Assembly (NCBI GenBank): GCA_964388605.1 | Contig: CAYMBC010000001.1 | Location: 1-44,117 of the forward strand | Direction of reading: 5' to 3' | Length of the DNA stretch: 44,117 nucleotides | Source: an uncultured Gammaproteobacteria bacterium | GTDB lineage: Bacteria > Patescibacteriota > Patescibacteriia > SG8-24 > DYFX01 | Shown here: piece after piece, positions 12,687 to 42,112 of the stretch | Layout: the number at the start of each line of letters is the position of its first letter | Position numbering within the stretch: the stretch's first letter is position 1 | The notes under the pieces: model-generated | Databases searched by the model: none | The model's input: only the letters and a program-made list of their open reading frames with translations | Told to the model about the DNA's origin: nothing | Translations under genes and position numbers: made by a program

Positions 12687-12779
12687 CGGCTTCAAACGCG
12701 CGCGAGGCGGCGTCTGCCCTTGGGGAAAAGCGCGGTTGACAGTCGTGTTCTTGAAGACTAAGGTTGGACGGGATTTTCC

Positions 12780-13820: not shown

Positions 13821-13823
13821 GGT

Positions 13824-13846
13824 AAAGACGCGCAGGCGCGTCTTTT
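13824..13846 (+). terminator. Rho-independent terminator after metK
   Basis: AAGACGCG-cagg-CGCGTCTT followed by TT. Confidence 0.7.
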
Positions 13847-13847
13847 G

Positions 13848-13856
13848 TGATAGAGT
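13848..13856 (+). promoter_or_regulatory. Extended -10 box (TGaTAGAGT) 10 nt upstream of ATG 13867
   Basis: tTGaTAGAGTagtcagtactATG; no SD. Confidence 0.4.
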
Positions 13857-13866
13857 AGTCAGTACT

Positions 13867-14688
13867 ATGCGAACAAGGACGTTTCTTCTCTTCGCCTTTG
13901 CCGCGCTCGCCTTGGCGGCGGCGGGGACAGCCTTCGCGTTTCGCGTCGTTATTCGCGACGAGATTGCCGCGCGTTTCAAGCCGGCGCTGCCCATCGCTCA
14001 GCCGTACGAGCCGGTTGTCCAAGCGTCGCCTTCGGAGCCGAAACCGCCTTTGAAGACCGGTTCCTCGCTTGAGGCGAAGCCCGTATCGGTTCCCGCGCCG
14101 ACCCCAACCCCAGCGGCTTCAAAAGGGGTCAACTTGGCGGTACCGTTCACATCTCAAGCGCCAAAAGCGGATTGGAGCTTGCCATACCAAGAAACATGCG
14201 AAGAGACGTCGCTTCTCATGGTTGACGCCTTTCTTTCAAATGCCGGAGCGTTCACGCCGGAGGTGGCTGATGCCAAAATTCTGAGCTTGGTCGAATGGGA
14301 GAAAAACCGATTCGGGTACTACGAGGACACGACCGCGGAGGAGGTCGCGGAAACCGCTCGGGAACGCCTCGGATATGCCCGGTCGCGCGCTTTGAAAATA
14401 ACATCGATGTCCGACGTCAAGACGGTTCTCGATCGCGGATTGCCCGTGATCGTCCCGGCCGCAGGCCGGGAACTTCGCAATCCGTACTTTTCGGGAGCTG
14501 GACCGAAATATCACATGCTCGTCATCAAGGGGTATACGGAAGACGGAAGGATCATCACGAACGACCCGGGCACGAGGCGAGGCGCGGATTACGTCTATGA
14601 TGCCAGCGTCCTTTGGGGCGCGATTCATGATTGGAATGGCGGAGACGTCGGGAACGGCGGCAAAATGATGGTCGTCGTCGAGAAATAA
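13867..14688 (+). CDS. Secreted/membrane-anchored peptidase_C39-like domain protein
   Basis: N-terminal hydrophobic anchor and a Pro-rich linker. VPFTSQAPKADWSLPYQETCEETSLLMV resembles the C39-like (PF13529-type) N-terminal Cys region. Assignment is from memory. Confidence 0.65.
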   Translation: MRTRTFLLFAFAALALAAAGTAFAFRVVIRDEIAARFKPALPIAQPYEPVVQASPSEPKPPLKTGSSLEAKPVSVPAPTPTPAASKGVNLAVPFTSQAPKADWSLPYQETCEETSLLMVDAFLSNAGAFTPEVADAKILSLVEWEKNRFGYYEDTTAEEVAETARERLGYARSRALKITSMSDVKTVLDRGLPVIVPAAGRELRNPYFSGAGPKYHMLVIKGYTEDGRIITNDPGTRRGADYVYDASVLWGAIHDWNGGDVGNGGKMMVVVEK

Positions 14689-21498: not shown

Positions 21499-21507
21499 TG
21501 GTATAGT
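21499..21507 (+). promoter_or_regulatory. Extended -10 box (TGgTATAGT) 10 nt upstream of ATG 21518
   Basis: ccgTGgTATAGTgaacgcgctaATG. The listed GTG start at 21506 lies inside this box. Confidence 0.45.
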
Positions 21508-21517
21508 GAACGCGCTA

Positions 21518-22999: not shown

Positions 23000-23004
23000 G
23001 GCGT

Positions 23005-24246
23005 ATGCAGAGTTGGCGCAAGCGAACGGCTCTCCCATTGATTTTCTTAGGCGTCTTCTCGGCAGGAGATGTCCGGGCCGCGAACATTGTTTGGGCGCAA
23101 GCGGCCAACCTCGCGCTGGCCGGTTCCAGCATCACGTTGGTCGTTGATGCCGGATCGGAAGCCGACAGCCTTACGGTCGGCTCGTCGAGTTTTACCGTCT
23201 CGGTCGCCAGCGGACAGGTGTTCACGGTGCGCTATCCAGGGCCTTCCTATGGAACGATGACGAATGACGGGGCTATCAACGAATGCAGCATTGTCGGTTC
23301 GGACAACGTCGTTGTGGTGAACGGCCCAAAAACGGTCACGTTCACCCCGATCACGACGACCTGCGTGGAAGCGGTTCCGGTCAGGACGGGTAGCGGAAGC
23401 GTTCAGCCTCCCTCCGTTCGCGTATATGCGCCTAACGGCGGTGAAAAAGTGAAAAGCGGATCGTTACAGCGCGTTTTTTGGATGTACGGAGGTTCCCAAG
23501 GACGCAGCATGACCTTGCAGCTTTCCGTGAATGGCGGCGATTTTAAAACCGCGGCCACGAATCTCGCTTTATCGGGAGGGTTTCACGATCTTGCGCTTCC
23601 GGAGCTTGCATCTGATGCTACGGCGATCGTGCGCGCGCAGCTCATCGGGGACGGCGATGCGGTCTTGTCGTATGATGACTCGGACGGGGTTTTTACGATC
23701 GAAGGTTCCAGTCTTGCTGAAAGAACGGAGCCTTCAGAGAAAGCCGCAGATGCTCCGGAGTCGTATGATCCGAAAGCGACGATTGATGGTGACAAGGTTT
23801 TGCCGGAAAACAATGAGGGGCTCGGATCATTCTGTCTGGAAAAGAAGCTGATCAAGTTGGCAGATGACGGGAATCCAGAGACGCAGCACGACAGCGCCGT
23901 GTATTATTGCGGTCGAGACGGGAAACGCTACGGCTTTCCGAACGCGAAAATCTACGCGACATGGTATGAGGATTTTTCGAGCGTGACCGTTATTGCTCCC
24001 GAGGCCATGGCGGCGCTGCCGCTCGGCGGAAACGTGACGTATCGGCCCGGAAGCCGTCTCGTGAAAATCCAGAGCGATCCCAAAGTATACGCTGTTGGGC
24101 GCGACGGCCTTTTGCGGCACGTGCCCGATGAAGCTACGGCCGCAGCCCTTTTTGGAAACTCATGGAGCAGCCTGGTCGACGATATCGATGTCGCTTTTTT
24201 CTCGAATTACCGTTTCGGTTCTCCTGTTCCGAGGGCGACGCCGTGA
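23005..24246 (+). CDS. Secreted hypothetical protein
   Basis: ATG 23005 gives a signal peptide MQSWRKRTALPLIFLGVFSAGDVRAANIV. No family recognised. Confidence 0.65.
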   Translation: MQSWRKRTALPLIFLGVFSAGDVRAANIVWAQAANLALAGSSITLVVDAGSEADSLTVGSSSFTVSVASGQVFTVRYPGPSYGTMTNDGAINECSIVGSDNVVVVNGPKTVTFTPITTTCVEAVPVRTGSGSVQPPSVRVYAPNGGEKVKSGSLQRVFWMYGGSQGRSMTLQLSVNGGDFKTAATNLALSGGFHDLALPELASDATAIVRAQLIGDGDAVLSYDDSDGVFTIEGSSLAERTEPSEKAADAPESYDPKATIDGDKVLPENNEGLGSFCLEKKLIKLADDGNPETQHDSAVYYCGRDGKRYGFPNAKIYATWYEDFSSVTVIAPEAMAALPLGGNVTYRPGSRLVKIQSDPKVYAVGRDGLLRHVPDEATAAALFGNSWSSLVDDIDVAFFSNYRFGSPVPRATP

Positions 24247-30327: not shown

Positions 30328-30825
30328 TTAATCCGCAAGAATCTTCGTGGCGGACGTCAGCGCCGCGCGAATCGCCTCCAGATCCTGCCTTGAAACGTCG
30401 TTGCCTCGCAGGTCGAGCGTGAGCAGGTTCTTGAGGTTTCCGAGTTCCATCGGGAGGCCGGTGAGATTGTTGTTAGAGAGATCCAATATTTGCAAAGCGG
30501 ACAATTGCCCGATTTCCGCCGGGACGCCGCTCAAAAGGTTTTCGCTGGCGTCTAAAAGACGCAAGCGCTTCAAATGGCGAATCTCGCCGGGCAAAGCGCC
30601 CGTCAGGCGGTTTCCGGAAAGATCAAGTTCCTCGAGGTGTGTTTTTTCAAAAAGCGAGGAGGGCAAATTTTCCAGGCTCTTGCCGGAGAGATCGAGTCGT
30701 GCCGTTGCAGGGGCGGTGTTTTCGACAGCGACGATACTGTCTTTTTCCTCCGTGGGCGCTGTTGTTCCAGTACAGCCGGCCCCAAGCATCAAGAATACGG
30801 AGAAAAAGATTGGATACTTCTTCAT
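30328..30825 (-). CDS. Leucine-rich-repeat lipoprotein
   Basis: ATG 30825 gives MKKYPIFFSVFLMLGAGC (lipobox L-G-A-G-C). It is followed by about five LxxLxLxxNxL repeats. Confidence 0.8.
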   Translation of the reverse strand: MKKYPIFFSVFLMLGAGCTGTTAPTEEKDSIVAVENTAPATARLDLSGKSLENLPSSLFEKTHLEELDLSGNRLTGALPGEIRHLKRLRLLDASENLLSGVPAEIGQLSALQILDLSNNNLTGLPMELGNLKNLLTLDLRGNDVSRQDLEAIRAALTSATKILAD

Positions 30826-31053
30826 AGGCAATCATGGTGTGTTTCGGGGCCTTCGCCGCGTTCCCGCACGCCAGCGTTTTTTCGCTTCCGCACCAGAAAT
30901 CGGAGAAGGAGCCTCGGGGACAATCTGCGCGGCGTTCCTGCCGGGAGTATAGCACACATCAGGCTTCTGCGGTGTTTGCAAAAATGCAGGAACAAGGCGT
31001 GTCCGTGATCTTTTCGTGGTATGTACGGGAGTGCTGCGCGTTCCGGAATGTTG

Positions 31054-31062
31054 TGTTATAGT
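31054..31062 (+). promoter_or_regulatory. Extended -10 box (TGtTATAGT) upstream of the pilus operon
   Basis: gtTGtTATAGTgaatgggataagcgtATG. 15 nt to ATG 31078, so a very short leader without a clear SD. Confidence 0.45.
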
Positions 31063-31077
31063 GAATGGGATAAGCGT

Positions 31078-31440
31078 ATGGCAAAAAAAATACTGATTAT
31101 CGAAGATGAAAAGCCTCTTGCACGCGCTCTTGAGTTGAAATTGGCGCATGAAGGTTTTGAGACGAAATCTCTGTCAAACGGCGAAGATATCCTTGCGACG
31201 CTTGCCGGCGGAGGATTTGTCCTTGTCGTGTGCGACTTGGTCATGCCAAAAGTGGACGGTTTTCAGGTTTTGCAGACGATAAAAGAAAAGAACCTGAAAA
31301 TTCCGGTCATTATCCTGACCAACTTGAGCCAGCCGGAGGACGAGAAAAAAGCGCGCTCGCTCGGTGCGGCGGAGTTTTTCATAAAATCGAGCACGCCGAT
31401 CGCGCGGATCGTTGAGCATATTAAGGAAATGGTCGGGTAA
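31078..31440 (+). CDS. Single-domain (REC-only, CheY-like) response regulator
   Basis: ILIIEDE, phospho-acceptor context LVVCDLVMPKVDG, IILTN, and the conserved Lys in FFIKS. There is no output domain. Confidence 0.85.
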   Translation: MAKKILIIEDEKPLARALELKLAHEGFETKSLSNGEDILATLAGGGFVLVVCDLVMPKVDGFQVLQTIKEKNLKIPVIILTNLSQPEDEKKARSLGAAEFFIKSSTPIARIVEHIKEMVG

Positions 31441-31445
31441 TCGAG

Positions 31446-33101
31446 ATGCCTATGACGTTTGATCAGGAGGAGATCAAGAAGGTATTGCTCGACGGGAATT
31501 ACGTGGCGGAGGAAGATCTTCGGAAAGCCGAGGCGTACGCGCAGGAGCATCGCGGTTCGTTGGTCGAGTACCTGCTTCTCGAGGGGCTTACGAGCAACGA
31601 CATGATCGGGCAGGCGATCGCGGAAGCGCGCGGTGTACCGTACTCGAACCTGAGCGTACACGCGCCATCGCGGGAACAAGTGCTTCTTTTGCCGGAGGAT
31701 GTCGCAAAAAAACTCCGCACGGTCGTCTTCGAATTGACGGACTCTAAAGTCATTATCGCGACGGATGATCCGGCTGCGGACGGCTTGGTGGAGGCCTTAG
31801 CCCCTTTTTTCTCGGGGAGGAAAGTGGAAATCACGTTTTCTCTTCCCGAGGGCATTGATGCGGCCTTTGCCAGCTATCAGAAAGGGCTCGAAACGCGCTT
31901 CGCTAAAATCGTCGAAAGCAAAGGGCGAGCCGCTCCTGAAATCGTGGATCAGATTTTGGAGGATGCGCTTTTATTGAAAGCTTCGGACATACATTGCGAG
32001 CCCCAGGAAAAAAACGTGGTCGTGCGCTTCCGAGTCGACGGCATGCTGCACGAAGCGGGCTCATTGCCGAAGGAGTTTTATGAGAACATCCTCAATCGTT
32101 TCAAGGTGCAGTCTCGGCTTCGCATTGACGAGCATTTCAGCGCCCAGGACGGGGCGATACGCTATGCATCCAAGCAGTACGCGCATCCGGTAGATTTGCG
32201 CGTTTCCATCGTTCCGACCCTTGATGGGGAAAAAATAGCCGTTCGTATTTTGTCCTCGTACGTGCGCGAGCTGACGCTCAGCGATATCGGGCTTTCGAAA
32301 AAATTGCAAGAACAGATCACGTCAAGTTCTCGAAAGCCGTTCGGGATGATTTTGGTGACCGGGCCGACGGGAAGCGGAAAAACAACCACGCTGTATTCGC
32401 TTATCAAAACCATTAACAGCGAGAAGGTCAACATCACCACCATCGAAGATCCGGTAGAGTATAAGATGGAGGGCGTGAACCAAATCCAGGTGAATGCTCA
32501 AACCAATCTGACATTCGCGAAAGGGTTGCGAGCGGTCGCGCGCCAGGACCCGAACGTGATCCTGGTAGGTGAAATTCGCGACCTTGAAACCGCGGACATC
32601 GCCGTCAATGCCGCGCTGACGGGGCACCTTCTTCTTTCCACATTCCATGCGAATAACGCTGCGACGGCGATTCCCCGCCTGATCGACATGGGCGTCGAGC
32701 CTTTCCTGCTCAGTTCTACCTTGGAGCTTATTGTTTCGCAGCGGCTTGTCCGGAAAATTTGCGATGCGTGCAAGGTGAGTTATAAGGCAGCAAAAACGGA
32801 AATCAAGAAGTATGGAGAACCGGTTGCTGGGTTTTTCGGCGGACCATCGTTTACGCTGTATCAAGGCAAGGGGTGCAGCGCGTGCTCGTACACCGGTTTC
32901 AAGGGGCGTATCGGCGTGTATGAATCCATCGCGACTTCCCCCGAACTGCAAGATATGATCGCAAAAATCCCGTCGACGAAAGATATTGCCGATCTCGTTC
33001 GCTCGCAGGGTTTCTCCTCGATGTTTGAGGACGGCATTGAAAAAGTGAAGGCGGGCGTGACGACGCTTGAAGAACTTTTGCGGGTCGTAAACCGCCCATA
33101 A
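31446..33101 (+). CDS. pilB: Type IV pilus / type II secretion assembly ATPase (GspE/PilB family)
   Basis: Walker A VTGPTGSGKTTT, Asp box ITIEDPVEY, Walker B ILVGEIRD, His box LLSTFHAN, and a tetracysteine motif CDAC...CSAC. Confidence 0.9.
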   Translation: MPMTFDQEEIKKVLLDGNYVAEEDLRKAEAYAQEHRGSLVEYLLLEGLTSNDMIGQAIAEARGVPYSNLSVHAPSREQVLLLPEDVAKKLRTVVFELTDSKVIIATDDPAADGLVEALAPFFSGRKVEITFSLPEGIDAAFASYQKGLETRFAKIVESKGRAAPEIVDQILEDALLLKASDIHCEPQEKNVVVRFRVDGMLHEAGSLPKEFYENILNRFKVQSRLRIDEHFSAQDGAIRYASKQYAHPVDLRVSIVPTLDGEKIAVRILSSYVRELTLSDIGLSKKLQEQITSSSRKPFGMILVTGPTGSGKTTTLYSLIKTINSEKVNITTIEDPVEYKMEGVNQIQVNAQTNLTFAKGLRAVARQDPNVILVGEIRDLETADIAVNAALTGHLLLSTFHANNAATAIPRLIDMGVEPFLLSSTLELIVSQRLVRKICDACKVSYKAAKTEIKKYGEPVAGFFGGPSFTLYQGKGCSACSYTGFKGRIGVYESIATSPELQDMIAKIPSTKDIADLVRSQGFSSMFEDGIEKVKAGVTTLEELLRVVNRP

Positions 33102-33115: not shown

Positions 33116-34249
33116 ATGAGGCAGATACAGGTCAGAAAATCCTACGAGAAGGAAGGATTTAAAGAGCCTGTTTTTGGCTATCGTCCGGATTGGCCGTATA
33201 TAAGCATTGGGTTCGGGGACGAGCGTGAGTATTTTGTTGAAAACCTGAGCCTGCTGATTTCTTCCGGAATGGGTATGTTGAACGCGCTTGAAGCGATGAG
33301 CGCGTCCATGAAAACCCGGAAGATGAAAAAAATCGTTCGCATGATAGAGGTGATGGTGAATGAAGGTTCTCCGCTTTGGCGCGCGCTTGAGGAAACAGGA
33401 ATCCTCCCAGAACGGGAAATATCTCTCGTACGCGCGGGGGAGGAGGCGGGAAGGCTCCCTGAGCACCTGAATCTCGTGACGTTGCAGCGGCACAAGGACA
33501 AAGTTTTCAAATCGCGTCTGCGTTCGGCGCTCATCTATCCCGGCATCGTCCTTTTTCTCGCTTTCCTTGTCGCAGTGGGAGGAGCTTGGCTCATCTTGCC
33601 GAAACTCGTGGCCATTTTCTCAGAATCCAACGGCACGCTCCCGGTTGCGACGCGCCTGTTGCTGTCGGTGGGCACGTTTTTTGGGCGGTATGGAACCCTT
33701 GCTGCCCTAGGTTCCGTCGCGCTCGTGCTGTTTTTGGCCTACGCAGCCTTTATCAACAGGAAGACGAGATTCATTGGCGACGCGATTTTATTCACGTTCC
33801 CCGTCATCAAGAAGCTGGCGCGCGGCGTCGAGATGGCGCGTTTCGGCTACGTGCTCGGAGCTCTTTTGCAGGCTGGGTTTCAAGTGAACGATGCTTTATC
33901 ATCGGTCATCAAGGGAACGAGATACGATTCTTACCGCAAGTTTTACGGGTACTTAAGGGAGTGCGTCTCGAACGGCGAGACTTTTAAATCCGCCTTTTCG
34001 AATTCTAAAAAGACTGATCGTTTCATTCCAAGGCCGATACAGCAACTTATCGTGTCATCCGAAAGCTCTGGGAAGCTTCCGGAAACGCTTATTAAAATCG
34101 GGGTTATTTTTGAGGAGAAAACAGATGCGATGTCCCAAGACCTTTCGACCGTCCTTGAACCCATCGTCTTGATCATCGTCGGTCTTGTCGTCGGTTTCGT
34201 TGTGCTGGCCATTATCGGTCCGATCTATGACCTTTCCAACCAGCTCTAA
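33116..34249 (+). CDS. pilC: Type IV pilus / T2SS platform protein (GspF/PilC family)
   Basis: Two T2SSF-type repeats, each ending in TM helices. C-terminal LEPIVLIIVGLVVGFVVLAIIGPIYDL is typical. Confidence 0.85.
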   Translation: MRQIQVRKSYEKEGFKEPVFGYRPDWPYISIGFGDEREYFVENLSLLISSGMGMLNALEAMSASMKTRKMKKIVRMIEVMVNEGSPLWRALEETGILPEREISLVRAGEEAGRLPEHLNLVTLQRHKDKVFKSRLRSALIYPGIVLFLAFLVAVGGAWLILPKLVAIFSESNGTLPVATRLLLSVGTFFGRYGTLAALGSVALVLFLAYAAFINRKTRFIGDAILFTFPVIKKLARGVEMARFGYVLGALLQAGFQVNDALSSVIKGTRYDSYRKFYGYLRECVSNGETFKSAFSNSKKTDRFIPRPIQQLIVSSESSGKLPETLIKIGVIFEEKTDAMSQDLSTVLEPIVLIIVGLVVGFVVLAIIGPIYDLSNQL

Positions 34250-34685
34250 AGCTTCTCAAGGCGGATTCACGCTCGTCGAGACGGTCGTTGTGTTGGGGAT
34301 TATCAGCTTGCTAGCCACGATTTCCTCTTCGATTTACGGAAACTTCAAAGCTCGGGAGAATCTCGAATTGGCCGCGCTTACCGTCGTGGAGGGCGTGCGC
34401 CACGCGCAGGCGAACGCGCAGGCCGGCAAAGATGGCAGCGCGTGGGGGGTCGCCTTTCTTGCGGATACGATTATTGTATTCAAGGGAGCGCAGTATGCGG
34501 AGAGGGATGCTGCCCGGGATCAGGTTGTCGCGCTTCCTCCCGGAGTTTCCGTCACGGGGGTTTCCGAAATAGGCTTTAGCGGGATCGTTGGGGCCAATGC
34601 AATGCCTGGAACCGTGATGCTTGCCAACGCGTACGGAGAAAAACATATCGTGATCAATGAAAAAGGAGTCGTTACCTATTACTAA
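34227..34685 (+). CDS. Prepilin-type minor pilin, GspH/FimT-like
   Basis: ATG 34227. Leader MTFPTSSKASQGG then FTLVETVVVLGIISLLA (G|FTLxE class III signal with Glu5). The C-terminal IVINEKGVV pattern resembles GspH. Confidence 0.75.
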   Translation: MTFPTSSKASQGGFTLVETVVVLGIISLLATISSSIYGNFKARENLELAALTVVEGVRHAQANAQAGKDGSAWGVAFLADTIIVFKGAQYAERDAARDQVVALPPGVSVTGVSEIGFSGIVGANAMPGTVMLANAYGEKHIVINEKGVVTYY

Positions 34686-35481
34686 CGGCGGATTCTCGCT
34701 GGTCGAGATGCTCGTCGCGTTTTCCGTATTCGCTCTTTTCGTTATCGCAACGACGGGCGTCGTGTCAGGGGTTGCGCGAAACGCGCGCTTCGTCGCCACC
34801 AGCGAGAAGGCCTCGCGGTTGGCGGAAGAAGCTCTTGAAGTCTCTAGAAATCTCAGGGACGCCGCGCCGGATTTTGCGATGCTGCCCGATGGCGCTCACG
34901 GCTTGTCCTACGCGGGGAACATCTGGGGTTTTTCAGGAACTTCGGATTCTCACGATATTTTTACGCGCACGGTCTCAGTCTCGACTGTTGCGCCTAATCA
35001 GAAAAAAATCGATGTCGGCGTGTCATGGACCGAACAAGGCGCTGCGCCGCGTTCTCTGGCCGTCTCCACCTACCTTACCAATTGGCACGCGGTGCTGAAC
35101 GTTGGTAGGGGATTGACGGTGAACAAGATTGTTATCAATCATGGCGGCACGAAGGTTGCTTCCGATTTCGGACCTTTTTTTGCCGGCCAGGACGAAGTGG
35201 TCCTTGGCGAGGCAAGTTTGCTACCTGACGGAACTTACGCCGTTTCCGAGACAGCCGATCCCGAGTACGCGCAAACGTTCAGCGGTGATTGCGACGCGAA
35301 CGGTATGATTACGATCGAAGCGCATTCGACCGTTTCGTGCACGATCACGAACGAGGAAAAGCTCTCGTACCTTACGGTAAACAAGCATGTTATCAATCAT
35401 GGGGGGGGGAAAGACAGCTTCCGATTTCACGTTGACGGTGGATTCCAATCCTGTCGTATCCGGCAGCACGAACGCTTTTAA
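34657..35481 (+). CDS. Giant pilin-like gene, 5' segment (prepilin leader, GspI/PilV-like helix, first beta-sandwich repeat); frame broken at the G9 tract
   Basis: MKKESLPITNGG|FSLVEMLVAFSVFALFV. After 35409 the translation (KDSFRFHVDGGF...) no longer matches the paralogous repeat, whereas the +1 frame does. Confidence 0.75.
   Translation: MKKESLPITNGGFSLVEMLVAFSVFALFVIATTGVVSGVARNARFVATSEKASRLAEEALEVSRNLRDAAPDFAMLPDGAHGLSYAGNIWGFSGTSDSHDIFTRTVSVSTVAPNQKKIDVGVSWTEQGAAPRSLAVSTYLTNWHAVLNVGRGLTVNKIVINHGGTKVASDFGPFFAGQDEVVLGEASLLPDGTYAVSETADPEYAQTFSGDCDANGMITIEAHSTVSCTITNEEKLSYLTVNKHVINHGGGKDSFRFHVDGGFQSCRIRQHERF
35401..35409 (+). repeat. Homopolymeric G9 tract at the frame break of the giant pilin gene
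   Basis: catGGGGGGGGGaaagac. With 8 G the two ORFs fuse into one 631-codon frame (…VINHGGGKTASDFTLTV…). Confidence 0.95.
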
Positions 35482-36553
35482 TTCCGGCGTTCACATCGTT
35501 TCCGAGACAGCCGATCCTGGGTACTTTAAAACGGTCGGCGGTGATTGCGCGGCAGACGGTTCGGTGACGCTTGTGCCAGGAACGACAAAAACGTGCACGG
35601 TCACCAACGAAGAAATCGTTTTAGATGCCGTTCCGGCCCTCGATTCACCCAGCGCCTCTTCCATTACCGCAACTTCCGCGGTTCTTGGAGCGACGGTTCA
35701 ATCGCTCGGCGTTCCATCCGTTGTGACTGCGCGCGGTGTGTGTGTCGGAACCTCGCCGAACCCTTCATGGGAAAGCGGAGCGACCTGTCTTGCAGCGGGT
35801 CTTTCGCAGGAGGTTCCAGGCACGTTTACCGTTTCGGCGGCCTTCTTGGCTCCCGCGACGACCTACCACTTCAGGGGGTTCGCGACGAATTCGACCGGTA
35901 CGGGATACAGCATCGATAGCACATTCACGACGGAGGCTGCTCCCGTGGTGCCGATCGTGGCAAACCCGACCGTTTCATCAATCGGAACGACGACTGTGAC
36001 GCTTGGGGCTGAAATCGTTTTTCCGGGAGTCCCATCTGCGATCATTTCTCGCGGGACATGCTGGGGCACCTTGCCAGCCCCTGTTACTAACTGCGTGGCC
36101 GAAGGTGGTACGACCTCAGGAGTCTTTACGCAAGCTCGTTCCGGTTTCGTTCCGGGAGTAACCTATTATTTCCGCGGGTATGCCACGAACGGTACGGGAA
36201 CAGGATATTCGGCCGACAGCACGTTCAGCACGGCAACCCAGGTCTTCAGCGTGACGGCTACGAATTCGGCTAATTACAGGATCGACGGTGTTAACGATCC
36301 TGTGCTGACGTTGCAGCGAGGTAGGCGGTACGTCTTCACTATTAACGCTCCAGGACATCCGTTCTGGATCAAACTGGGGAACACGTCGAAGACGGCGGGG
36401 ACAGGAAACGCTTACTCCGACGGCGTGACTAACAACGGCGCGACCAGCGGACAGATCATCTTCGATGTCCCGTTGTCGGCTCCGGCTTCCAACCTGTATT
36501 ACATCTGCGAGTTGCACAGCCAGATGAATGCGAACATAAATACGACACCGTAG
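35402..36553 (+). CDS. Giant pilin-like gene, 3' segment (second beta-sandwich repeat, two FN3-like repeats, C-terminal cupredoxin-like domain)
   Basis: GKTASDFTLTVDS...VSETADPGYFKTVGGDC...CTVTNEE parallels HGGTKVASDF...VSETADPEYAQTFSGDC...CTITNEE in the upstream ORF. There are two ITATSAVLGA.../TTYHFRGFATN-type repeats. The tail has GHPFWI ... YYICELHSQM. Confidence 0.75.
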   Translation, partial: GGGKTASDFTLTVDSNPVVSGSTNAFNSGVHIVSETADPGYFKTVGGDCAADGSVTLVPGTTKTCTVTNEEIVLDAVPALDSPSASSITATSAVLGATVQSLGVPSVVTARGVCVGTSPNPSWESGATCLAAGLSQEVPGTFTVSAAFLAPATTYHFRGFATNSTGTGYSIDSTFTTEAAPVVPIVANPTVSSIGTTTVTLGAEIVFPGVPSAIISRGTCWGTLPAPVTNCVAEGGTTSGVFTQARSGFVPGVTYYFRGYATNGTGTGYSADSTFSTATQVFSVTATNSANYRIDGVNDPVLTLQRGRRYVFTINAPGHPFWIKLGNTSKTAGTGNAYSDGVTNNGATSGQIIFDVPLSAPASNLYYICELHSQMNANINTTP

Positions 36554-36554: not shown

Positions 36555-37055
36555 ATGCGCCATGCATGGGGAACTGATCGCGGCTTTTCTTTGATCGAAG
36601 CGCTTCTTTACGTGGCGATTTTCTCAACATTCATCTTGGGAATTGCCGGTTTTTCCAGCAATCTTCTTGCGGTGCGATCGCGCACTCAGGCTCTGCTGGA
36701 AGTCAACGAACAGGGAGCTGCGGCGCTTCGGGTGATTGCGCAGACGCTGAGAAATGCAAGCTTGGTGAACAGCCCCATACCCGGCAACGCGGGTTCGAGC
36801 CTGAGTCTTGTCACGGCGGATTTGGCAACGAGTCCTACGGTATTTTCGGAGGACGGAGGCGTACTTTCAGTTTCAGAGGGATCCGGAAATCCGATCGCGT
36901 TGACGAATAACAAGGTAATCGCGAGCGACGTGTCGTTTTTGAATCTCTCGAATCCGGGCACGCCGAACATCGTCAAGATACGTTTCGTACTGACCAGCGT
37001 CGCGCTACGGCCGTTTACGGCGGTATTCGAGGGGAGTGCTGCGCTCAGGAAATAA
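36555..37055 (+). CDS. Prepilin-type minor pilin, GspJ/PilW-like
   Basis: MRHAWGTDRG|FSLIEALLYVAIFSTFILG with Glu5. Starts 1 nt after the stop of the preceding gene. Confidence 0.7.
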   Translation: MRHAWGTDRGFSLIEALLYVAIFSTFILGIAGFSSNLLAVRSRTQALLEVNEQGAAALRVIAQTLRNASLVNSPIPGNAGSSLSLVTADLATSPTVFSEDGGVLSVSEGSGNPIALTNNKVIASDVSFLNLSNPGTPNIVKIRFVLTSVALRPFTAVFEGSAALRK

Positions 37056-37060: not shown

Positions 37061-37459
37061 ATGAACAGGATGCACATGAAAATCTCGAAGGGTTTTTCCG
37101 CGCTGTTTGTCGTCGTTGTTCTGGGCGGAGTCGCGTTGTCGCTCGCGCTCGCTTTGTCCACGAGCGCTATCTGGTCGATTCGAGGAAGCGTTGATGCTAA
37201 AACATCGAATCAAGCCAAGGCACTGGCAAACGCGTGCGCTGAAGTGGCGTTGGAAACGCTTCGTGAGAATAACGCGTATGTCGGGACAAGCACCTTAACG
37301 CTCGACGGCCAGACCTGCGCCTTCTCGGTCTTGTTCTTAGGGGGTACTGAGCGACGGATTGAAGTGACGGCTACGGTCGGGGATATCGTCCGAAAACTCG
37401 CCGTTATTACAGGTGCGTTCAATCCGCTCGTCGTCTCTTCATGGCAGGAAGTTCCATAA
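37061..37459 (+). CDS. Pilin-like protein lacking Glu5 (GspK/PilX-like)
   Basis: MNRMHMKISKG|FSALFVVVVLGGVALSLALA. Position 5 after the putative cleavage site is Phe, not Glu. The start could also be 37070 or 37076. Confidence 0.6.
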   Translation: MNRMHMKISKGFSALFVVVVLGGVALSLALALSTSAIWSIRGSVDAKTSNQAKALANACAEVALETLRENNAYVGTSTLTLDGQTCAFSVLFLGGTERRIEVTATVGDIVRKLAVITGAFNPLVVSSWQEVP

Positions 37460-37490: not shown

Positions 37491-39653
37491 ATGGACTTTT
37501 TCCATGCGGTGAGAAATTGGCTTCAACGTTTTGGCTATGCCGTGGCAGGGGCCGCGTTTTTAGCTGCTATTCCCGTCTGGCTCCTCTTTTTTTTAAATGA
37601 GAGTTTTGAGATCCATGAGAATTTTTCATTAGTGACGCACGTCAACTCGTTTGATAACTTTTACGACGTTGAAAAAGGGGTATTTACCGGCGAACGGCCT
37701 TCTGCCACGGTTTTCTCCTATCGAGTCGTCGGAGGTGATAGTCGGCAAGTCTCCGTTGAAAATACATTCGATGTCCGGACCCTTTCAGGGGACAGCATCT
37801 TTAAAGTCTCTAGAATCTACGGCATAGACGCGCATACGGGAAAGCATGTTGCCGGATTGGGAGACCGGGATCGGGCAGGCTATTTGTTTGCCCCTCGCAT
37901 GAAAGGGCTTGCCGCCCAGGTTCCCGATAAAGCTGCTTTTGAGTACTGGCATGTCAATTACAATACGCCGGCACGCATGGAGTACCAGGCCGAGGAGATG
38001 CTCTACAGCCTTCGAGTTTATCGTTACGAGGCGGATCTTACGGCAGATCAGACGAAGGAGCTCGCCGGGATTCTCTCTGGAGTTGGGAAGGACAAGGGGA
38101 TTACGTTGAATGCGCACCTGACCTTGTGGTTTGAGCCTTATACCGGCAGGATCGTGCAATATGCCGATCAGACAGAGGCGTTCTATTATGATTTGTCGGA
38201 CGGAAGGCGTCTGTATCCTTGGAATTCGTTTCATAACAACACGGCAATCGTTTCCGCGGCTCAGCAAGCGAAACTGATAGAGGTTCTCAGGGTACGGGCA
38301 ATTTTTCTAGAGTTTTTTATCCCCGGATTCTTCTTGCTTGCGTCCTTGCTGTGTTTTCTTTATCCGCGGTTGCGCCGCAGCTTATTCGGGGAGGGGGGGA
38401 GAGTACCTGGTTCAAACGCCCCCTTTCTGCTTCCTCTGCTGGCGGCTTCGGCGTTGATGATCCCGACCATCATTCTCTCGTTTGCTCTTGCAGCTCTGGT
38501 GCGCCAGCAGGCCGATGCGGATTTTAACGCGGAGAGCGCGCTCGTGCATGCGGCGATTGAACGGAGACTGGAAACTAACGCCGACGTGTTGCGAGGCGCT
38601 CAGGGGTTATTTTCGGCCTCCGATTTGGTTAAGAGAGAGGCCTGGCGTTCCTATTCCGAAAGTCTTGGCTTGGAAGCGAATTATCCGGCAATCCTCGGTC
38701 TTGGATTCGGCAAGGCGGTTCGTGATGCCGACAAGTCTGCGGTCGAGAACGAGACTCGTAAAGAAGGCTTCGTTGATTTTGGCGTCAGGCCGTCCGGAAC
38801 CCGCGAATGGTACGTGTTGGTGTATTATATCGAACCGTTCGTCGGCGTGAACAGAAACGCCATTGGCTTCGATATGGCCTCGGAAGCCGTTCGACGCGCC
38901 GCGATAGACCACGCCAGCAGCACCGGGTCCATTTCGATGACCGGGAAGATCTTCCTTGTTCAAGACTCCGGAACGAAACCACAACCGGCGTTTATCGTTT
39001 ATGCTCCCGTGTACGAGAAAACGAATACGTCATTGGAGCCGAGGAAACCCCGCGTTGTCCAAGGGTATGTTTATGCAGCGCTCCGTTTGAGCAATCTGAT
39101 GGCCGCTATTCTTTCCAAACAGCCTTCCAATGTCGGTATTGAGATTTTCGATGGGGGGCAGACGGACGGTCTCGACGAGGAACGTTTGATGTACAAGAAC
39201 GATCTCGTAACGCCATCGCCGGCGTTCACGAAAGTTTCCATTATTAACCTGTATAATCACCAATGGGTCGTGCGGTACAGCGCGCCAGCATCGTTCCATT
39301 CCGATGTTATTCGCTCTCGGGCTCCTTGGGCGGTACTAGTCTTCGGCTTGATTTTCTCGCTCCTCGTCGCGCTCATTCTCTACGTGGTCAATACGCAACG
39401 CGCGCGCGCGGAACAAATCGCGATGTCGATGACAAGCGATCTTCGAAGAAAAAATGAGGAGAACGAACGTATTAAGAGCGAGCTAAAAAAGACCAACTTG
39501 GTCATCGAAGAAAAAGCGAAGATTTTGTCCGATAAGGTTGCTGAAGTGGAATCCATCAACAAGCACATGGTCGACAGAGAGTTGCGCATGATTGAATTAA
39601 AAAAACAGTTGTCGCGCATGCGGGGAGAGGACGATTTTAGCGGTGCGCCATGA
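37491..39653 (+). CDS. Membrane sensor-like protein: N-terminal DUF3068-like extracytoplasmic domain, CHASE domain, TM, C-terminal coiled coil; no recognisable output domain
   Basis: The CHASE-like block runs from ADADFNAESALVHAAIERRLE through YPAILGLGFGKAV and REWYVLVYYIEPF..NRNAIGFDM to SISMTGKIFLVQD and AFIVYAPVY. Hydrophobic helices lie near residues 15-35, 280-300, 320-345 and 630-650. The tail is NEENERIKSELKKTNLVIEEKAK. Confidence 0.7.
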   Translation: MDFFHAVRNWLQRFGYAVAGAAFLAAIPVWLLFFLNESFEIHENFSLVTHVNSFDNFYDVEKGVFTGERPSATVFSYRVVGGDSRQVSVENTFDVRTLSGDSIFKVSRIYGIDAHTGKHVAGLGDRDRAGYLFAPRMKGLAAQVPDKAAFEYWHVNYNTPARMEYQAEEMLYSLRVYRYEADLTADQTKELAGILSGVGKDKGITLNAHLTLWFEPYTGRIVQYADQTEAFYYDLSDGRRLYPWNSFHNNTAIVSAAQQAKLIEVLRVRAIFLEFFIPGFFLLASLLCFLYPRLRRSLFGEGGRVPGSNAPFLLPLLAASALMIPTIILSFALAALVRQQADADFNAESALVHAAIERRLETNADVLRGAQGLFSASDLVKREAWRSYSESLGLEANYPAILGLGFGKAVRDADKSAVENETRKEGFVDFGVRPSGTREWYVLVYYIEPFVGVNRNAIGFDMASEAVRRAAIDHASSTGSISMTGKIFLVQDSGTKPQPAFIVYAPVYEKTNTSLEPRKPRVVQGYVYAALRLSNLMAAILSKQPSNVGIEIFDGGQTDGLDEERLMYKNDLVTPSPAFTKVSIINLYNHQWVVRYSAPASFHSDVIRSRAPWAVLVFGLIFSLLVALILYVVNTQRARAEQIAMSMTSDLRRKNEENERIKSELKKTNLVIEEKAKILSDKVAEVESINKHMVDRELRMIELKKQLSRMRGEDDFSGAP

Positions 39654-42112
39654 GGTTCTTTAAGGGATTCGGGATTGGTTTCAAGGTCATAGCGTTGGCT
39701 GCCTTGCTCGCCGCCGTTTTTCTTGGTAGCGCGTTCACATACGTTGCTGTCTCTTCAAGGAACGCGCTGATCGCATCGACGCTCGGCACGCTTCATGCAG
39801 AAATTTTGAGCGAGCAAAGGAACATCGAGACCTACATGTTCCGCGTGAGATCCATGCTCCTGGCCGTAAAGGGCACGGCTCCGGTTCAAGGCATTCTCCG
39901 CGCGCGGGCGAATAACGGTTTTGACGCGCTCGATAACTCAACGCTTGAACAGTGGAGGGCGAGATTGCGCGAAAATTTCAAGGCGGAAATGAGAGCGTCT
40001 CGTCTCTACAGCCAGCTCCGGTATATTGACGAAAACGGCATGGAGGTCGTCAGGGTCGATCTCGTCTCCGGAGAAATCCGTTCGGTTCCGGATGAAGAAT
40101 TGCAGGAGAAAGGCGACCGAGAGTATTTTTTGCAAGCGAAAAAACTTTCCGATGGCGATATTTACGTGTCTTATACGGAACTGAACAAGGAGGGTACTCC
40201 GCCCCGTGTAAGCGTTCCGTATACGCCGACCATACGGTATGCAACTCCTGTTTTTGATGCGAAAAGCAGGAAAAACAAAGGGATCATTATCGCGAATGTC
40301 CTTGTCGATCAAGTTGTTGCCGAAAGCGACCTGCTGAACACTTCAAGCTTTGATGCATTTGTCATCAACTCTTTTGGGTATTTCATAGTCCATCCAAATC
40401 CTGCGAAAGAATGGGGCGGGTCGCAAGATCTTAATACCGGGTTCCGATTGGAAACCGAATTTCCGCTACTTTCCAAGTCGGACTTCAGCGGAAAGAACGG
40501 GTTGTTTCAAAAAGGAGGCGATGTGATCGCGTATGCAAAGATCCAGCCGGATACCGCCAATCCGAATCAAGAATGGATCATCATGGAAAAAGCGCCGACA
40601 AGCATCATTTTTTCCCCGATCAATACAACCATCGCGAACGCTATCAAAGTCGGCGTGGGGGCGTTCTTCGCGCTGTTTTTCGTCTTTTTGTTCGTCATCA
40701 GGAAGATTTTTCAGCCGTTGCAAGACCTGATCAGCGCCGCCGAACGCATTGGTCTCGGTGATTTCTGGGCGTCAGTCTCCGTTCGGAGCCGCGATGAAAT
40801 CGGCACCGTCGCCGAGGCTTTCAATGCGATGGCTCAAAAACTGCGGACTTCGCACAGTCTTTTAGAGCAACGAATTCAGGAGAAGACGCAGGATTTAAGC
40901 GGCAAGGTCGGAGAGTTGGAAAAAACACAGACGGCGATGTCGAATATTCTCGAGGATTTGGAAGACGAAAGAAAAAAACTCACGTCTTCCACGCAGCGCC
41001 TGGCGCTTGCAACGGAGTCGGCGAAGATTGGCGTGTGGGAATGGGATATCGACAATGATGTCCTTTCCTGGGACGCGCAAATGCGCGCTTTGTATGGGAT
41101 CGGAGACAGGGCGTTTGAGGGGACGCGATCCGCATGGAGGAAGTTTTTGCATCCTGACGACAAAAAGGCCGAAGAAGAAGCTTTGCAGCTCGCGCTTCAG
41201 GACAAAAAAAATTTTGATACCGATTTCCGGATCGTTCGTCCTGGAGGAGAAGTTCGGTACGTGAGAGCCTATGCTCTTGTTGAAAGGGATGAGTTCGGGA
41301 AACCGCGCCGAATGATCGGGGTCAATTTTGACATCACACACGAGAAGGAGATTGATCGGGCAAAATCGGAATTCGTCTCCCTTGCTTCCCACCAGCTGCG
41401 CACGCCACTCTCCGCCATCAATTGGTACACGGAAATGCTGCTCGCCGGAGACGCCGGTCCTTTGAATGAGGAGCAAAAAAGCTATCTCAAAGAGGTTGCC
41501 GTCGGAAACAAGCGCATGGTGGATTTGGTCGATGCGCTGTTGAACACCTCTCGTCTTGAACTCGGCACGTTTATTATCGACCCCGTTCCCACCGATGTTG
41601 CCGTGCTCGTGAACAGCGTCCTTAGCGAGCTGAAATCCGATATCGTTAAAAAGAAACTGGTTATTACGGATAAGTTCAATAAATCGTTGCCGAAGTTTAC
41701 GGCGGATGAAAAGCTGTTGCGCATCGTCGTTCAAAACCTCCTTTCAAACGCTGTGAAGTATACCCAAGAAGGAGGAGAGATCCTGGTGAGCTTGGACGTC
41801 ATGGATAATGGCCAAAAATTCGGAAATAAGAAGATTAAGGGGCGGAACATGGTTTTGATGGTTCGCGATTCCGGCATGGGCATTCCCGTGTCGCAACAAG
41901 GGAAGATTTTTTCAAAACTTTTTCGAGCGGATAACGCCAAGGAATCCGAAGCAGAAGGAACGGGTTTAGGTCTCTACATCATCAAATCGATCATCGAACA
42001 GTCTGGAGGAAGCGTGTGGTTCGAGTCGGAAGAAAAGAAGGGGACGGCATTTTACGTCGCGTTTCCGATCATGGGCATGAAAGCCAAAACTGGAAGCAAG
42101 AAATTGGAATAG
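39650..42112 (+). CDS. Sensor histidine kinase (TM - Cache-like domain - TM - HAMP - PAS - HisKA - HATPase_c)
   Basis: HAMP IGLGDFWASVSVRSRDEIGTVAEAFNAM. PAS WEWDIDNDVLSWD...FLHPDD...FRIVRPGGEVRYV. H-box SHQLRTPLSAI, N-box NAVKYT, G-boxes DSGMGIP and GTGLGLYI. ATGA overlap with the upstream gene. Confidence 0.9.
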   Translation: MRFFKGFGIGFKVIALAALLAAVFLGSAFTYVAVSSRNALIASTLGTLHAEILSEQRNIETYMFRVRSMLLAVKGTAPVQGILRARANNGFDALDNSTLEQWRARLRENFKAEMRASRLYSQLRYIDENGMEVVRVDLVSGEIRSVPDEELQEKGDREYFLQAKKLSDGDIYVSYTELNKEGTPPRVSVPYTPTIRYATPVFDAKSRKNKGIIIANVLVDQVVAESDLLNTSSFDAFVINSFGYFIVHPNPAKEWGGSQDLNTGFRLETEFPLLSKSDFSGKNGLFQKGGDVIAYAKIQPDTANPNQEWIIMEKAPTSIIFSPINTTIANAIKVGVGAFFALFFVFLFVIRKIFQPLQDLISAAERIGLGDFWASVSVRSRDEIGTVAEAFNAMAQKLRTSHSLLEQRIQEKTQDLSGKVGELEKTQTAMSNILEDLEDERKKLTSSTQRLALATESAKIGVWEWDIDNDVLSWDAQMRALYGIGDRAFEGTRSAWRKFLHPDDKKAEEEALQLALQDKKNFDTDFRIVRPGGEVRYVRAYALVERDEFGKPRRMIGVNFDITHEKEIDRAKSEFVSLASHQLRTPLSAINWYTEMLLAGDAGPLNEEQKSYLKEVAVGNKRMVDLVDALLNTSRLELGTFIIDPVPTDVAVLVNSVLSELKSDIVKKKLVITDKFNKSLPKFTADEKLLRIVVQNLLSNAVKYTQEGGEILVSLDVMDNGQKFGNKKIKGRNMVLMVRDSGMGIPVSQQGKIFSKLFRADNAKESEAEGTGLGLYIIKSIIEQSGGSVWFESEEKKGTAFYVAFPIMGMKAKTGSKKLE

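What the first reader, a model, noticed from the sequence alone, without database searches (positions are those of the whole stretch)
36239..36553. Cupredoxin-like module with a complete type-1 copper ligand set fused to a type IV pilin-like protein
The last ~104 codons of the 34657-36553 pilin gene read QVFSVTATNSANYRIDGVNDPVLTLQRGRRYVFTINAPGHPFWIKLG...GQIIFDVPLSAPASNLYYICELHSQMNANI. The four candidate ligands are His (36356-36358), Cys (36506-36508), His (36515-36517) and Met (36524-36526). That is an upstream His followed about 50 residues later by C-x2-H-x2-M. Small blue copper proteins use this arrangement: amicyanin has the C-x2-H-x2-M loop, and plastocyanin and amicyanin place the first His 39-47 residues before the Cys. 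The same polypeptide begins with a prepilin signal (TNGG|FSLVEML), so the module should be displayed on a pilus fibre. The neighbouring genes are in GspH/I/J/K-like order, which would place it at the pilus tip. I do not recall any described pilin-cupredoxin fusion. It could be a redox-active or copper-binding pilus tip (extracellular electron transfer, copper sensing, partner-cell interaction), or only a beta-sandwich used as an adhesin scaffold.
Basis: partly seen in the sequence, partly recalled or inferred. Interest (0 to 1): 0.8.

Follow-up and report, generated by a model that had tools for sequence, protein, structure and literature searches.

The report
Copper-site module on a frameshifted pilin
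The last 104 codons encode a blue-copper-type (cupredoxin) domain with all four copper-binding residues, sitting at the far end of a long type IV pilus subunit, but in this assembly a run of nine G's splits the gene in two, and the domain belongs to a very large, undescribed family best known from phage tail fibres.

Summary
However, 34657-36553 is not one ORF. ORF A (34657-35481) and ORF B (35387-36553) are in different frames and join only if the G9 tract at 35401-35409 is G8.

The module folds with high confidence (pLDDT 92.6). Its best solved-structure matches are all cupredoxins (AcoP, rusticyanin, plastocyanin). It has no Pfam hit. It belongs to a family of about 9,000 representative proteins that is abundant in phage tail-fibre and baseplate proteins (PHROG 677, E 9.5e-20; TM 0.86-0.90 to cyanophage tail fibres). 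In that family H/C/H/M is kept in 79-98% of copies and is usually lost as a set.

Intact pilin fusions exist in three other metagenome contigs; the two whose contigs were read show the same pilus-gene order. One keeps HCHM; two have lost three or all four ligands while remaining well conserved.

Most likely this is a modular PilV/GspI-like minor pilin. It carries a probably copper-binding cupredoxin as a distal recognition or capping module, and it is switched off or broken here. Extracellular electron transfer is unlikely. It is a new variant of the known kind "modular pilin".

The parts
34657..35481 (+). ORF A (274 aa). It holds the class III signal peptide (cleavage predicted after G12), the pilin module (residues about 13-150), SpaA_2 repeat 1, the start of SpaA_2 repeat 2, and then a 24-codon out-of-frame tail.
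   Evidence: N_methyl 20.6 bits; SpaA_2 E 4e-8; AF2 pLDDT 89.8: helix 15-69 plus six strands. P0285 is the public call of this ORF.
35401..35409 (+). G9 homopolymer at the change of frame. G8 or G11 would fuse ORF A to ORF B. It is the only homopolymer of 9 or more bases in the window.
   Evidence: With G8 the junction aligns without gaps to P0053, P0018 and P0016. The orthologues encode the Gly triplet with mixed codons.
35387..36553 (+). ORF B (388 aa as listed; homologous sequence starts at the G tract). It holds the rest of SpaA_2 repeat 2, two Fn3/Ig-like repeats of about 100 aa each (about 35621-36238), and the cupredoxin module. It has no signal peptide of its own.
   Evidence: P0017 is the 371-aa public call of this ORF; homologues are 600-1000-aa prepilins.
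36239..36550 (+). Cupredoxin-fold module, residues 528-631 of the repaired protein. Candidate type-1 copper ligands are His567 (36356-58), Cys617 (36506-08), His620 (36515-17) and Met623 (36524-26).
31446..33101 (+). PilB/GspE-type assembly ATPase.
   Evidence: T2SSE E 2.4e-117, MshEN.
33116..34249 (+). PilC/GspF-type platform protein.
   Evidence: T2SSF E 5e-41.
34185..34685 (+). First pilin-like gene (166 aa, GGFTLVE). It is weakly GspH/PpdA/ComGD-like.
   Evidence: (TIGR02532 passes its cut-off; GspH E 1.4e-5 is below cut-off).
36555..37055 (+). Third pilin-like gene (166 aa, RGFSLIE).
   Evidence: (N_methyl 21.3 bits).
37061..37459 (+). Fourth small gene (132 aa) with a hydrophobic pilin-like N-terminus, KGFSALF, that lacks Glu5. 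That is a GspK/PilX-like trait.
   Evidence: no family hit. The same gene position is kept in L001 and L002.

Best explanation
The locus encodes a modular minor type IV pilin, PilV/GspI-like, from an uncultivated bacterium. The organism is probably of the Patescibacteria/CPR group, judging from the names attached to homologues.

The repaired 631-aa protein has five parts in order: a class III signal peptide, a pilin module of about 140 aa, two SpaA_2 (prealbumin-like) domains, two Fn3/Ig-like repeats, and a C-terminal 104-aa cupredoxin.

Inferred mechanism:
1. The prepilin peptidase cleaves after Gly12.
2. The alpha-1 helix inserts the subunit into the filament. This most likely happens as part of the minor-pilin complex that primes and caps the pilus.
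3. The four Ig-like domains hold the cupredoxin away from the fibre as the most distal module.
4. The cupredoxin probably binds one copper ion through His567, Cys617, His620 and Met623.
5. It acts as a recognition, attachment or capping module, as its homologues presumably do on phage tail fibres. Copper would stabilise it or modulate it; it would not carry electrons to the cell.

In this assembly the gene is in an OFF or broken state because of the G9 tract. Only a truncated pilin without the distal modules would be made unless the tract changes length.

Shown here: fold, ligand conservation, pilin fold, operon context, frameshift, and intact orthologous fusions. Inferred: copper binding, tip location, binding role, and the meaning of the G tract.
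For: Fold:
- AF2 of the module gives pLDDT 92.6, pTM 0.85 and eight strands.
- The best PDB matches are AcoP, rusticyanin, plastocyanin, an amicyanin-loop chimera and multicopper-oxidase domains, all at probability about 1.0.

Ligands:
- H40, C90, H93 and M96 are invariant in 16 sequences at 47-60% identity.
- HCHM is found in 210 of 266 domain instances from 50%-identity representatives. Most of the rest are joint losses, with C to S together with changes at the His positions.
- HCHM is found in 119 of 132 instances in genome and metagenome loci, and in 84 of 86 viral instances.
- The loop aligns residue for residue on amicyanin C92/H95/M98 and on the 6hbe nitrite-reductase cupredoxin.
- The module's only His, Cys and Met are the four candidate ligands. 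Cys lies at the end of strand 7, and His and Met lie in the loop between strands 7 and 8.

Family:
- PHROG 677 'baseplate wedge tail fiber protein connector' matches at E 9.5e-20.
- The model matches cyanophage tail-fibre and baseplate models at TM 0.86-0.90.
- At least 561 IMG/VR stretches encode a relative, and 8,993 representative proteins match.

Pilin:
- The signal peptide and N_methyl motif are present.
- The AF2 model has the pilin lollipop shape.
- The gene sits in a PilB-PilC-pilin-X-pilin-pilin operon. L002 shows that whole order; in the shorter contig L001 only the pilin row is called.

Fusion:
- Intact fusions exist: P0040 (650 aa, HCHM), P0058 (455 aa) and P0286 (341 aa).
- All four pilin-borne modules share two indels and the NINT(T/I)P end.

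Modularity:
- At least five C-terminal module classes occur among 62 family members.
- This matches the 'modular pilin' concept of Raynaud et al. 2021 (PMC8179133).
Against: - The gene is frameshifted here.
- There is no Pfam hit for the module, even at E<=1.
- Profile matches to PDB sequences and hhalign comparisons to cupredoxins are weak (E 0.02-1).
- Two of four pilin-borne copies lack the ligands (QSRM and DSSL) yet remain 57-66% identical to the copies that keep them. Copper is therefore dispensable for at least some pilus versions.
- Foldseek of the pilin module was inconclusive. The best pilin hit was EpsI, E 0.27.
- GspH/I/J/K family cut-offs are not reached.
- No prepilin peptidase or major pilin is present in the window.
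- No experiment exists for any family member, as far as the searches show.
Confidence: 0.55

Rival explanations
1. The module is a metal-free beta-sandwich scaffold or adhesin. It works purely as a binding or structural domain at the end of the stalk, and the HCHM set in this copy is inherited from the phage/secreted-protein family without a function on the pilus.
For: P0058 (QSRM) and P0286 (DSSL) keep the module at 57-66% identity without the ligands, and P0058 sits in the same position of the same operon. The slot is filled by at least four other, unrelated module classes in sister pilins. The homologues sit on phage tail fibres, where a binding role is expected.
Against: The window copy and P0040 keep all four ligands. 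They also keep an otherwise unpaired extracellular Cys, which is replaced by Ser exactly where the His ligands are lost. Family-wide all-or-none conservation argues for a working site wherever it is present.
Confidence: 0.2
2. The module makes a redox-active pilus tip for extracellular electron transfer, or electron exchange with a partner cell or mineral.
For: The module has a complete type-1 copper ligand set with an amicyanin-type loop and would be displayed outside the cell on a filament.
Against: A single copper centre at the end of a four-domain stalk on a pilin has no evident electron path to the cell. No cytochrome, multicopper oxidase, nitrite reductase or copper-handling gene was found among the window ORFs scanned. 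The closest relatives are on phage tail fibres, which do not respire. Half of the pilin-borne copies lack the site.
Confidence: 0.05
3. The gene is a pseudogene in this organism. The G9 frameshift is real and fixed, and the cupredoxin module is simply not made.
For: Two separate ORFs are present and the public annotation calls two proteins. Five other homopolymers of 8 or more bases inside genes of this contig are in frame, so the assembly is not generally error-prone at homopolymers.
Against: The 388 codons downstream remain open. They remain 72% identical to P0040 in the module and align without gaps to homologues. Any inactivation is therefore very recent or reversible.
Confidence: 0.2
4. 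The G9 tract is a contingency (phase-variation) switch. Slipped-strand changes between G8 and G9 would turn display of the distal modules on and off, as poly-G tracts do in Neisseria pilC and other surface-protein genes.
For: It is the only homopolymer of 9 or more bases in 44 kb. It lies inside a surface-filament gene, exactly at the frame change. The orthologues lack the tract. The OFF product would still be a pilin with a shortened stalk.
Against: About 0.7 G or C runs of 9 or more bases are expected by chance in a 44-kb sequence with this base composition (my own estimate, not a tool result). There are no read-level or population data. I found no report of phase variation in this bacterial group. 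An assembly error at poly-G cannot be excluded.
Confidence: 0.2

Closest known systems
Small blue copper proteins (cupredoxins): amicyanin, plastocyanin, rusticyanin, AcoP
   Same: It shares the eight-strand Greek-key beta-sandwich. It has a His upstream and C-x2-H-x2-M in the last loop, the same loop length as amicyanin. The 'NAPGH' context resembles 'NNAGFPH' in plastocyanin (sequence recalled from memory).
   Different: It does not reach any Pfam cupredoxin model. It is not a free periplasmic electron carrier but the terminal domain of a 631-aa pilin. No redox partner is encoded nearby. His is followed by Pro-Phe instead of the usual Asn.
C-terminal module of phage 'baseplate wedge tail fiber protein connector' / tail-fibre proteins (PHROG 677; e.g. 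Prochlorococcus phage P-SSM2 Q58M57, Synechococcus phage S-H34 A0A6G8R690)
   Same: It is a true sequence homologue (E 9.5e-20) and a close structural match (TM 0.86-0.90, rmsd 1.3-2.5 Å, 26-38% identity). The HCHM set is the same.
   Different: Here it sits on a cellular type IV pilin rather than a virion protein. The pilin-borne copies form their own subgroup with two indels and an NINTTP end.
Modular type IV pilins (Streptococcus sanguinis PilB with a vWA module, PilC with a lectin module; ETEC CofB) - Raynaud et al. 2021, PMC8179133
   Same: It has a class III signal peptide and a small pilin module with a functional module grafted at the C-terminus. It is encoded with the pilus machinery, and it is expected to be exposed at the tip.
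   Different: The module type (cupredoxin) is not mentioned in that paper's text or in its supplementary files, including its list of 264 architectures. Here a four-domain Ig-like stalk separates the pilin from the module.
T2SS/T4P minor-pilin tip complex GspH-I-J-K / FimU-PilV-PilW-PilX
   Same: Four consecutive pilin-like genes lie directly after the ATPase and platform genes. The first is weakly GspH-like, the big one gives weak GspI/J hits, and the last lacks Glu5 like GspK. JGI names homologues PilV.
   Different: No family cut-off is reached. The structural search of the pilin module was inconclusive.
Poly-G phase-variable pilus genes (e.g. Neisseria pilC), from general knowledge
   Same: A long G tract lies inside the coding region of a pilus-associated surface protein and sets the reading frame.
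   Different: No evidence of length variation exists here. The tract lies mid-gene, so the OFF state gives a truncated pilin rather than no protein.

Membership tests
Cupredoxin / type-1 blue copper protein | Greek-key beta-sandwich of 7-8 strands | tested here: met
   AF2 gives pLDDT 92.6 and 8 strands. The top 50 Foldseek PDB hits are all cupredoxins or multicopper-oxidase domains, best E 6e-5, TM 0.67.
Cupredoxin / type-1 blue copper protein | Ligand set His ... Cys-xn-His-xn-Met, with the last three in or next to the loop between the last two strands | tested here: met
   H567, C617, H620 and M623. The strands are at module residues 86-90 and 97-103. The set is invariant in A1 and present in 79-98% of family instances.
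Cupredoxin / type-1 blue copper protein | Ligand atoms converge on one site (trigonal N2S plus an axial Met) | not testable with these tools
   Model coordinates are not returned, so only the secondary-structure positions are known.
Cupredoxin / type-1 blue copper protein | Binds copper (600-nm band, small A-parallel EPR signal) | not testable with these tools
   This needs an experiment.
Cupredoxin / type-1 blue copper protein | Matches a curated cupredoxin sequence model (Pfam Copper-bind, Cupredoxin_1, etc.) | tested here: not met
   The module has no Pfam hit at E<=1. The homologue P0013 gives Copper-bind E 0.03 and P0007 gives PF25489 at 28 bits. The profile against PDB sequences gives E 0.04-1.1.
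Phage tail-fibre/baseplate module (PHROG 677 C-terminal domain) | Significant match to the family profile | tested here: met
   E 9.5e-20 over module residues 3-102 against profile positions 308-408 of 412. BFVD matches have TM 0.86-0.90.
Type IV pilin (class III signal peptide protein) | Short leader ending in Gly, then F/M, Glu at +5, and a hydrophobic stretch of about 20 residues | tested here: met
   The N-terminus reads MKKESLPITNGG|FSLVEMLVAFSVFALFVIATTG.
Type IV pilin (class III signal peptide protein) | Curated N-terminal methylation motif model above its cut-off | tested here: inconclusive
   Pfam N_methyl scores 20.6 bits against a cut-off of 21.2. TIGR02532 is not listed for ORF A. 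Orthologues carry PF07963.
Type IV pilin (class III signal peptide protein) | Long alpha-1 helix packed on an antiparallel beta-sheet | tested here: met
   AF2 gives pLDDT 89.8, a helix at residues 15-69 and six strands. The Foldseek PDB search itself was inconclusive.
Type IV pilin (class III signal peptide protein) | Encoded with the assembly ATPase and platform protein | tested here: met
   PilB and PilC lie directly upstream. The same order is found in L002.
Modular pilin (pilin module plus grafted effector in one polypeptide) | One uninterrupted ORF joining the pilin module to the effector module | tested here: not met
   The window has a frameshift at the G9 tract. The feature is met in the orthologues P0040, P0058 and P0286.
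GspH-I-J-K / FimU-PilV-W-X minor pilin set | Matches to the individual family models | tested here: not met
   Only sub-threshold N-terminal hits were found: GspH 25 bits against a cut-off of 80, GspJ 23 against 65, GspI 18 against 44.
GspH-I-J-K / FimU-PilV-W-X minor pilin set | Four adjacent pilin-like genes, the last lacking Glu5 | tested here: met
   The layout is conserved in L001 and L002.
Contingency (phase-variable) locus | Tract length differs among reads or strains and switches the frame | not testable with these tools
   Only the consensus G9 is available. The orthologues have no tract.

The most novel reading that the evidence does not exclude
A copper-loaded cupredoxin is a shared 'business end' of cyanophage tail fibres and of pilus tips in ultra-small (CPR-type) bacteria. 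In this reading the type-1 copper site takes a direct part in recognising the host or partner surface, or makes attachment depend on redox state or copper availability. In this organism, display of the module would be toggled by a poly-G phase switch.
Probability: 0.12. Interest if true: 0.8.

Novelty: new variant of a known kind. Interest (0 to 1): 0.55.

Why it matters
Modular pilins are an accepted way of giving type IV pili new functions, but a cupredoxin module has not been described on one.

The module also opens onto something larger. It belongs to a family of about 9,000 representative proteins. The family has no Pfam match for this module and is described in no paper I could find. It keeps a complete blue-copper ligand set and sits mainly on phage tail-fibre and baseplate proteins and on secreted bacterial proteins.

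If those sites really bind copper, it raises the question of what a redox metal centre does on attachment organelles. The pilin subgroup offers a natural experiment, because it has copies with the ligand set and copies without it.

The G9 tract, if it varies in length, would be, as far as my searches show, an unreported case of phase variation in this poorly known bacterial group.

Tried and rejected
- Exact look-ups of ORF B, PilB and P0017 in the contig index found nothing. The organism could not be named. Cluster look-ups gave no organism names.
- The window's genome is not among the GTDB representative genomes.
- The JGI metagenome scan with the three pilin-type modules found only general family members, at 57% identity or less. 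None were fused to a pilin.
- The module-only protein search missed long fusions. A chimeric query of pilin module plus cupredoxin module recovered P0286.
- A single-sequence search of the module against PDB sequences gave only a chance hit.
- Foldseek of the pilin module against the PDB was inconclusive.
- Pfam found nothing for the alternative C-terminal modules of sister pilins.
- Literature searches for cupredoxin with tail fiber, baseplate or cyanophage, for At5g54830, and for phase-variable Patescibacteria pili found nothing relevant.
- I rejected independent translation of ORF B as a free cupredoxin protein. It would lack any signal peptide, and it begins inside a SpaA_2 domain.
- I rejected a general homopolymer-error explanation for the assembly, because five other homopolymers of 8 or more bases inside genes are in frame. 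An error specific to this G9 tract remains possible.
Full report
**Observation**

The arrangement is H-x49-C-x2-H-x2-M. These four residues are the only His, Cys and Met in the 104-residue module.

The stated gene, however, is not one ORF. Translating 34657-36553 in one frame runs into a stop at 35479-35481. ORF A (34657-35481, 274 aa) carries the prepilin N-terminus. ORF B (35387-36553, 388 aa) lies in the +1 frame and carries the module. The two frames overlap only between 35381 and 35478. That overlap contains a G9 homopolymer at 35401-35409, the longest homopolymer in the window.

Deleting one G gives a 631-aa protein. Pfam's SpaA_2 domain then runs straight across the junction (residues 238-315). 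The junction also aligns without gaps to three homologues: VINHGGGKTASDF in the window against VINHGGSKIVSDF in P0053. The public annotation of this same 44,117-bp contig calls two proteins (P0285 of 274 aa and P0017 of 371 aa).

**What the module is**

Pfam finds nothing in the module, even at E<=1. A single-sequence search of PDB sequences also finds nothing real.

Fifteen homologues at 47-60% identity, all small proteins, have H40, C90, H93 and M96 invariant. With that alignment, AlphaFold2 gives pLDDT 92.6, pTM 0.85 and eight strands. Cys lies at the end of strand 7, and His and Met lie in the loop before strand 8.

Foldseek against the PDB returns only cupredoxins in the top 50: AcoP (E 6e-5, TM 0.67), rusticyanin, plastocyanin, an amicyanin-loop CuA chimera, and multicopper-oxidase domains.

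Weak profile matches place the C/H/M loop on the type-1 ligands of a three-domain nitrite reductase (YICSIHPYMKG) and of auracyanin. Plastocyanin needs the expected 2-residue gap. These sequence-level statistics are weak (E 0.02-1). The case for the fold rests on the structure comparison.

**A large family centred on phages**

A full HMMER scan with the family profile finds 8,993 representative proteins at 50% identity clustering with E<=1e-3, and 4,836 with E<=1e-10. Many are long, multi-domain or tandem proteins with collagen-like or tail-fibre-like N-termini.

- The window module matches PHROG 677, 'baseplate wedge tail fiber protein connector', at E 9.5e-20. It also matches several 'tail fiber protein' PHROGs.
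- Against predicted viral structures the match is much closer than to any solved cupredoxin. TM is 0.86-0.90 with 26-38% identity to tail-fibre and baseplate proteins of Prochlorococcus and Synechococcus phages.
- Cellular copies occur in marine and freshwater Proteobacteria, Nannocystaceae, Verrucomicrobia and Flavobacteriia.
- JGI labels many members 'plastocyanin'.
- I found no paper that discusses a copper site on phage tail fibres.

**Are the ligands conserved together?**

HCHM occurs in the following samples:

| Sample | HCHM / instances |
|---|---|
| Representative proteins | 210 / 266 (plus 7 HCHF and 1 HCHQ) |
| Genome and JGI metagenome loci | 119 / 132 |
| Viral loci | 84 / 86 |

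The last two samples were partly selected through motifs that contain ligands, so they are biased upwards. In the representative-protein sample, most of the remaining instances have lost Cys (usually to Ser) together with changes at the His positions. This largely all-or-none pattern, and the lone extracellular Cys, are what a working metal site predicts.

**The pilin part and its context**

- The N-terminus is a canonical class III signal peptide, GG|FSLVE followed by a hydrophobic stretch. Pfam N_methyl scores 20.6 bits, just under the 21.2 cut-off.
- AF2 of residues 1-150 gives pLDDT 89.8, with a 55-residue helix followed by six strands. This is the pilin lollipop shape.
- The Foldseek search of that model was inconclusive. 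The best pilin hit was the T2SS minor pseudopilin EpsI, at E 0.27 and probability 0.95.
- The gene follows PilB (T2SSE, E 2e-117) and PilC (T2SSF), and lies second in a row of four pilin-like genes.
- The first of the four passes TIGR02532 and is weakly GspH/PpdA-like. The fourth lacks Glu5, as GspK does. No GspH/I/J/K model reaches its cut-off.
- JGI calls homologues PilV or PulG. One homologue is from 'Candidatus Paceibacterota'.
- The organism of the window could not be identified.

**Intact fusions elsewhere**

Three other proteins join this pilin module to this cupredoxin subgroup:

| Protein | Length | Ligand positions |
|---|---|---|
| P0040 | 650 aa | HCHM |
| P0058 | 455 aa | QSRM |
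| P0286 | 341 aa | DSSL |

P0040 and P0058 lie in the same operon layout, and L002 also shows PilB and PilC upstream. Their genomes differ widely in GC content: 45% and 42%, against 56% for the window.

All four modules share a 3-residue and a 1-residue insertion and the terminal NINT(T/I)P, which points to a single acquisition. Module identity among them (57-72%) is at least as high as that of their pilin modules (47-65%). The module is therefore under constraint on the pilus, with or without the copper ligands.

In the wider pilin family, the C-terminal slot is occupied by at least five unrelated module classes. The cupredoxin class accounts for 4 of 62 members. This is the 'modular pilin' pattern described by Raynaud et al. 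2021. Neither the text nor the supplementary files of that paper, including its list of 264 architectures, mention cupredoxin or copper.

**Interpretation**

The best reading is a modular PilV/GspI-like minor pilin. Its four Ig-like domains present a cupredoxin as the distal module. By analogy with its tail-fibre relatives and with other modular pilins, the module most likely serves recognition, attachment or capping. In this copy it probably binds copper, which would stabilise or modulate it.

Electron transfer to the cell is unlikely, for four reasons:
- There is no visible electron path from a single centre on a long stalk.
- No redox or copper genes were found among the window ORFs scanned.
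- The closest relatives are phage proteins.
- Ligand-less orthologues exist.

**The frameshift**

Five other homopolymers of 8 or more bases lie inside genes of this contig, and all are in frame. They fall in the PPIase, MurD-like, response-regulator, CHASE-protein and histidine-kinase genes. The assembly is therefore not generally prone to homopolymer errors.

The downstream frame is fully open and conserved, so any inactivation is recent or reversible. The orthologues encode the Gly triplet with mixed codons and have no tract.

A real OFF state, a phase-variable switch and a poly-G assembly error cannot be told apart without reads. By my own estimate, about 0.7 G or C runs of 9 or more bases would occur by chance in 44 kb at this base composition. 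The tract alone is therefore not significant.

**Verdict**

- The cupredoxin fold and the ligand set are real.
- The pilin fusion is real in orthologues but interrupted here.
- The redox or electron-transfer reading is not supported.

The finding is a new variant of a known kind (modular pilins). Its added value is that it exposes a very large, uncharacterised cupredoxin family on phage tail fibres and surface proteins.

Noticed in passing
window 35401-35409: A G9 homopolymer, the only run of 9 or more bases in the window, lies exactly at the frame change of the pilin gene. G8 restores a gapless match to homologues. The orthologues lack the tract. It could be a phase-variation switch, a recent pseudogenisation or an assembly error.
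   Followed up: partly
module family; loci L110-L188 (IMG/VR), proteins P0136-P0283: The cupredoxin module belongs to a family of about 9,000 representative proteins. The family is abundant in phage tail-fibre and baseplate proteins (PHROG 677) and keeps H/C/H/M in most copies. I found no literature on a copper site in such proteins.
   Followed up: partly
proteins P0016-P0135 (pilin family): The same pilin-plus-Ig-like stalk carries at least five unrelated C-terminal module classes (group sizes 36, 13, 4, 4, 3, plus singletons). None of the other classes tested has a Pfam match.
   Followed up: partly
P0058 (L002 3402-4769) and P0286: These pilin-borne modules have lost three (QSRM) or all four (DSSL) copper ligands but are otherwise well conserved. 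Both have Ser in place of the ligand Cys.
   Followed up: yes
window 37061-37459: This fourth gene of the pilin row has a hydrophobic pilin-like N-terminus (KGFSALF) without Glu5, as in GspK/PilX. It matches no family.
   Followed up: partly
window 31021-31440 and 37491-42112: The pilus cluster is bracketed by signalling genes. A stand-alone response regulator lies upstream. Downstream are a membrane protein with PorA-like and CHASE domains and, overlapping its end, a HAMP-PAS histidine kinase. They may regulate the pilus.
   Followed up: no
window 30328-30831 (-): A small leucine-rich-repeat protein with a lipoprotein-like N-terminus lies just upstream of the cluster, on the opposite strand.
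   Followed up: no
window 9727-11853, 12666-13994 (-), 21506-22999, 22969-24246: These long ORFs (425-708 aa) have no Pfam match at E<=1e-5.
   Followed up: no
proteins P0300, P0374 (426-429 aa): These marine alphaproteobacterial proteins, labelled 'plastocyanin' by JGI, carry two copies of the module. The first copy is divergent (NHPLSI ... YYYCLFHSGM). P0300 alone was seen on 117 contigs.
   Followed up: no
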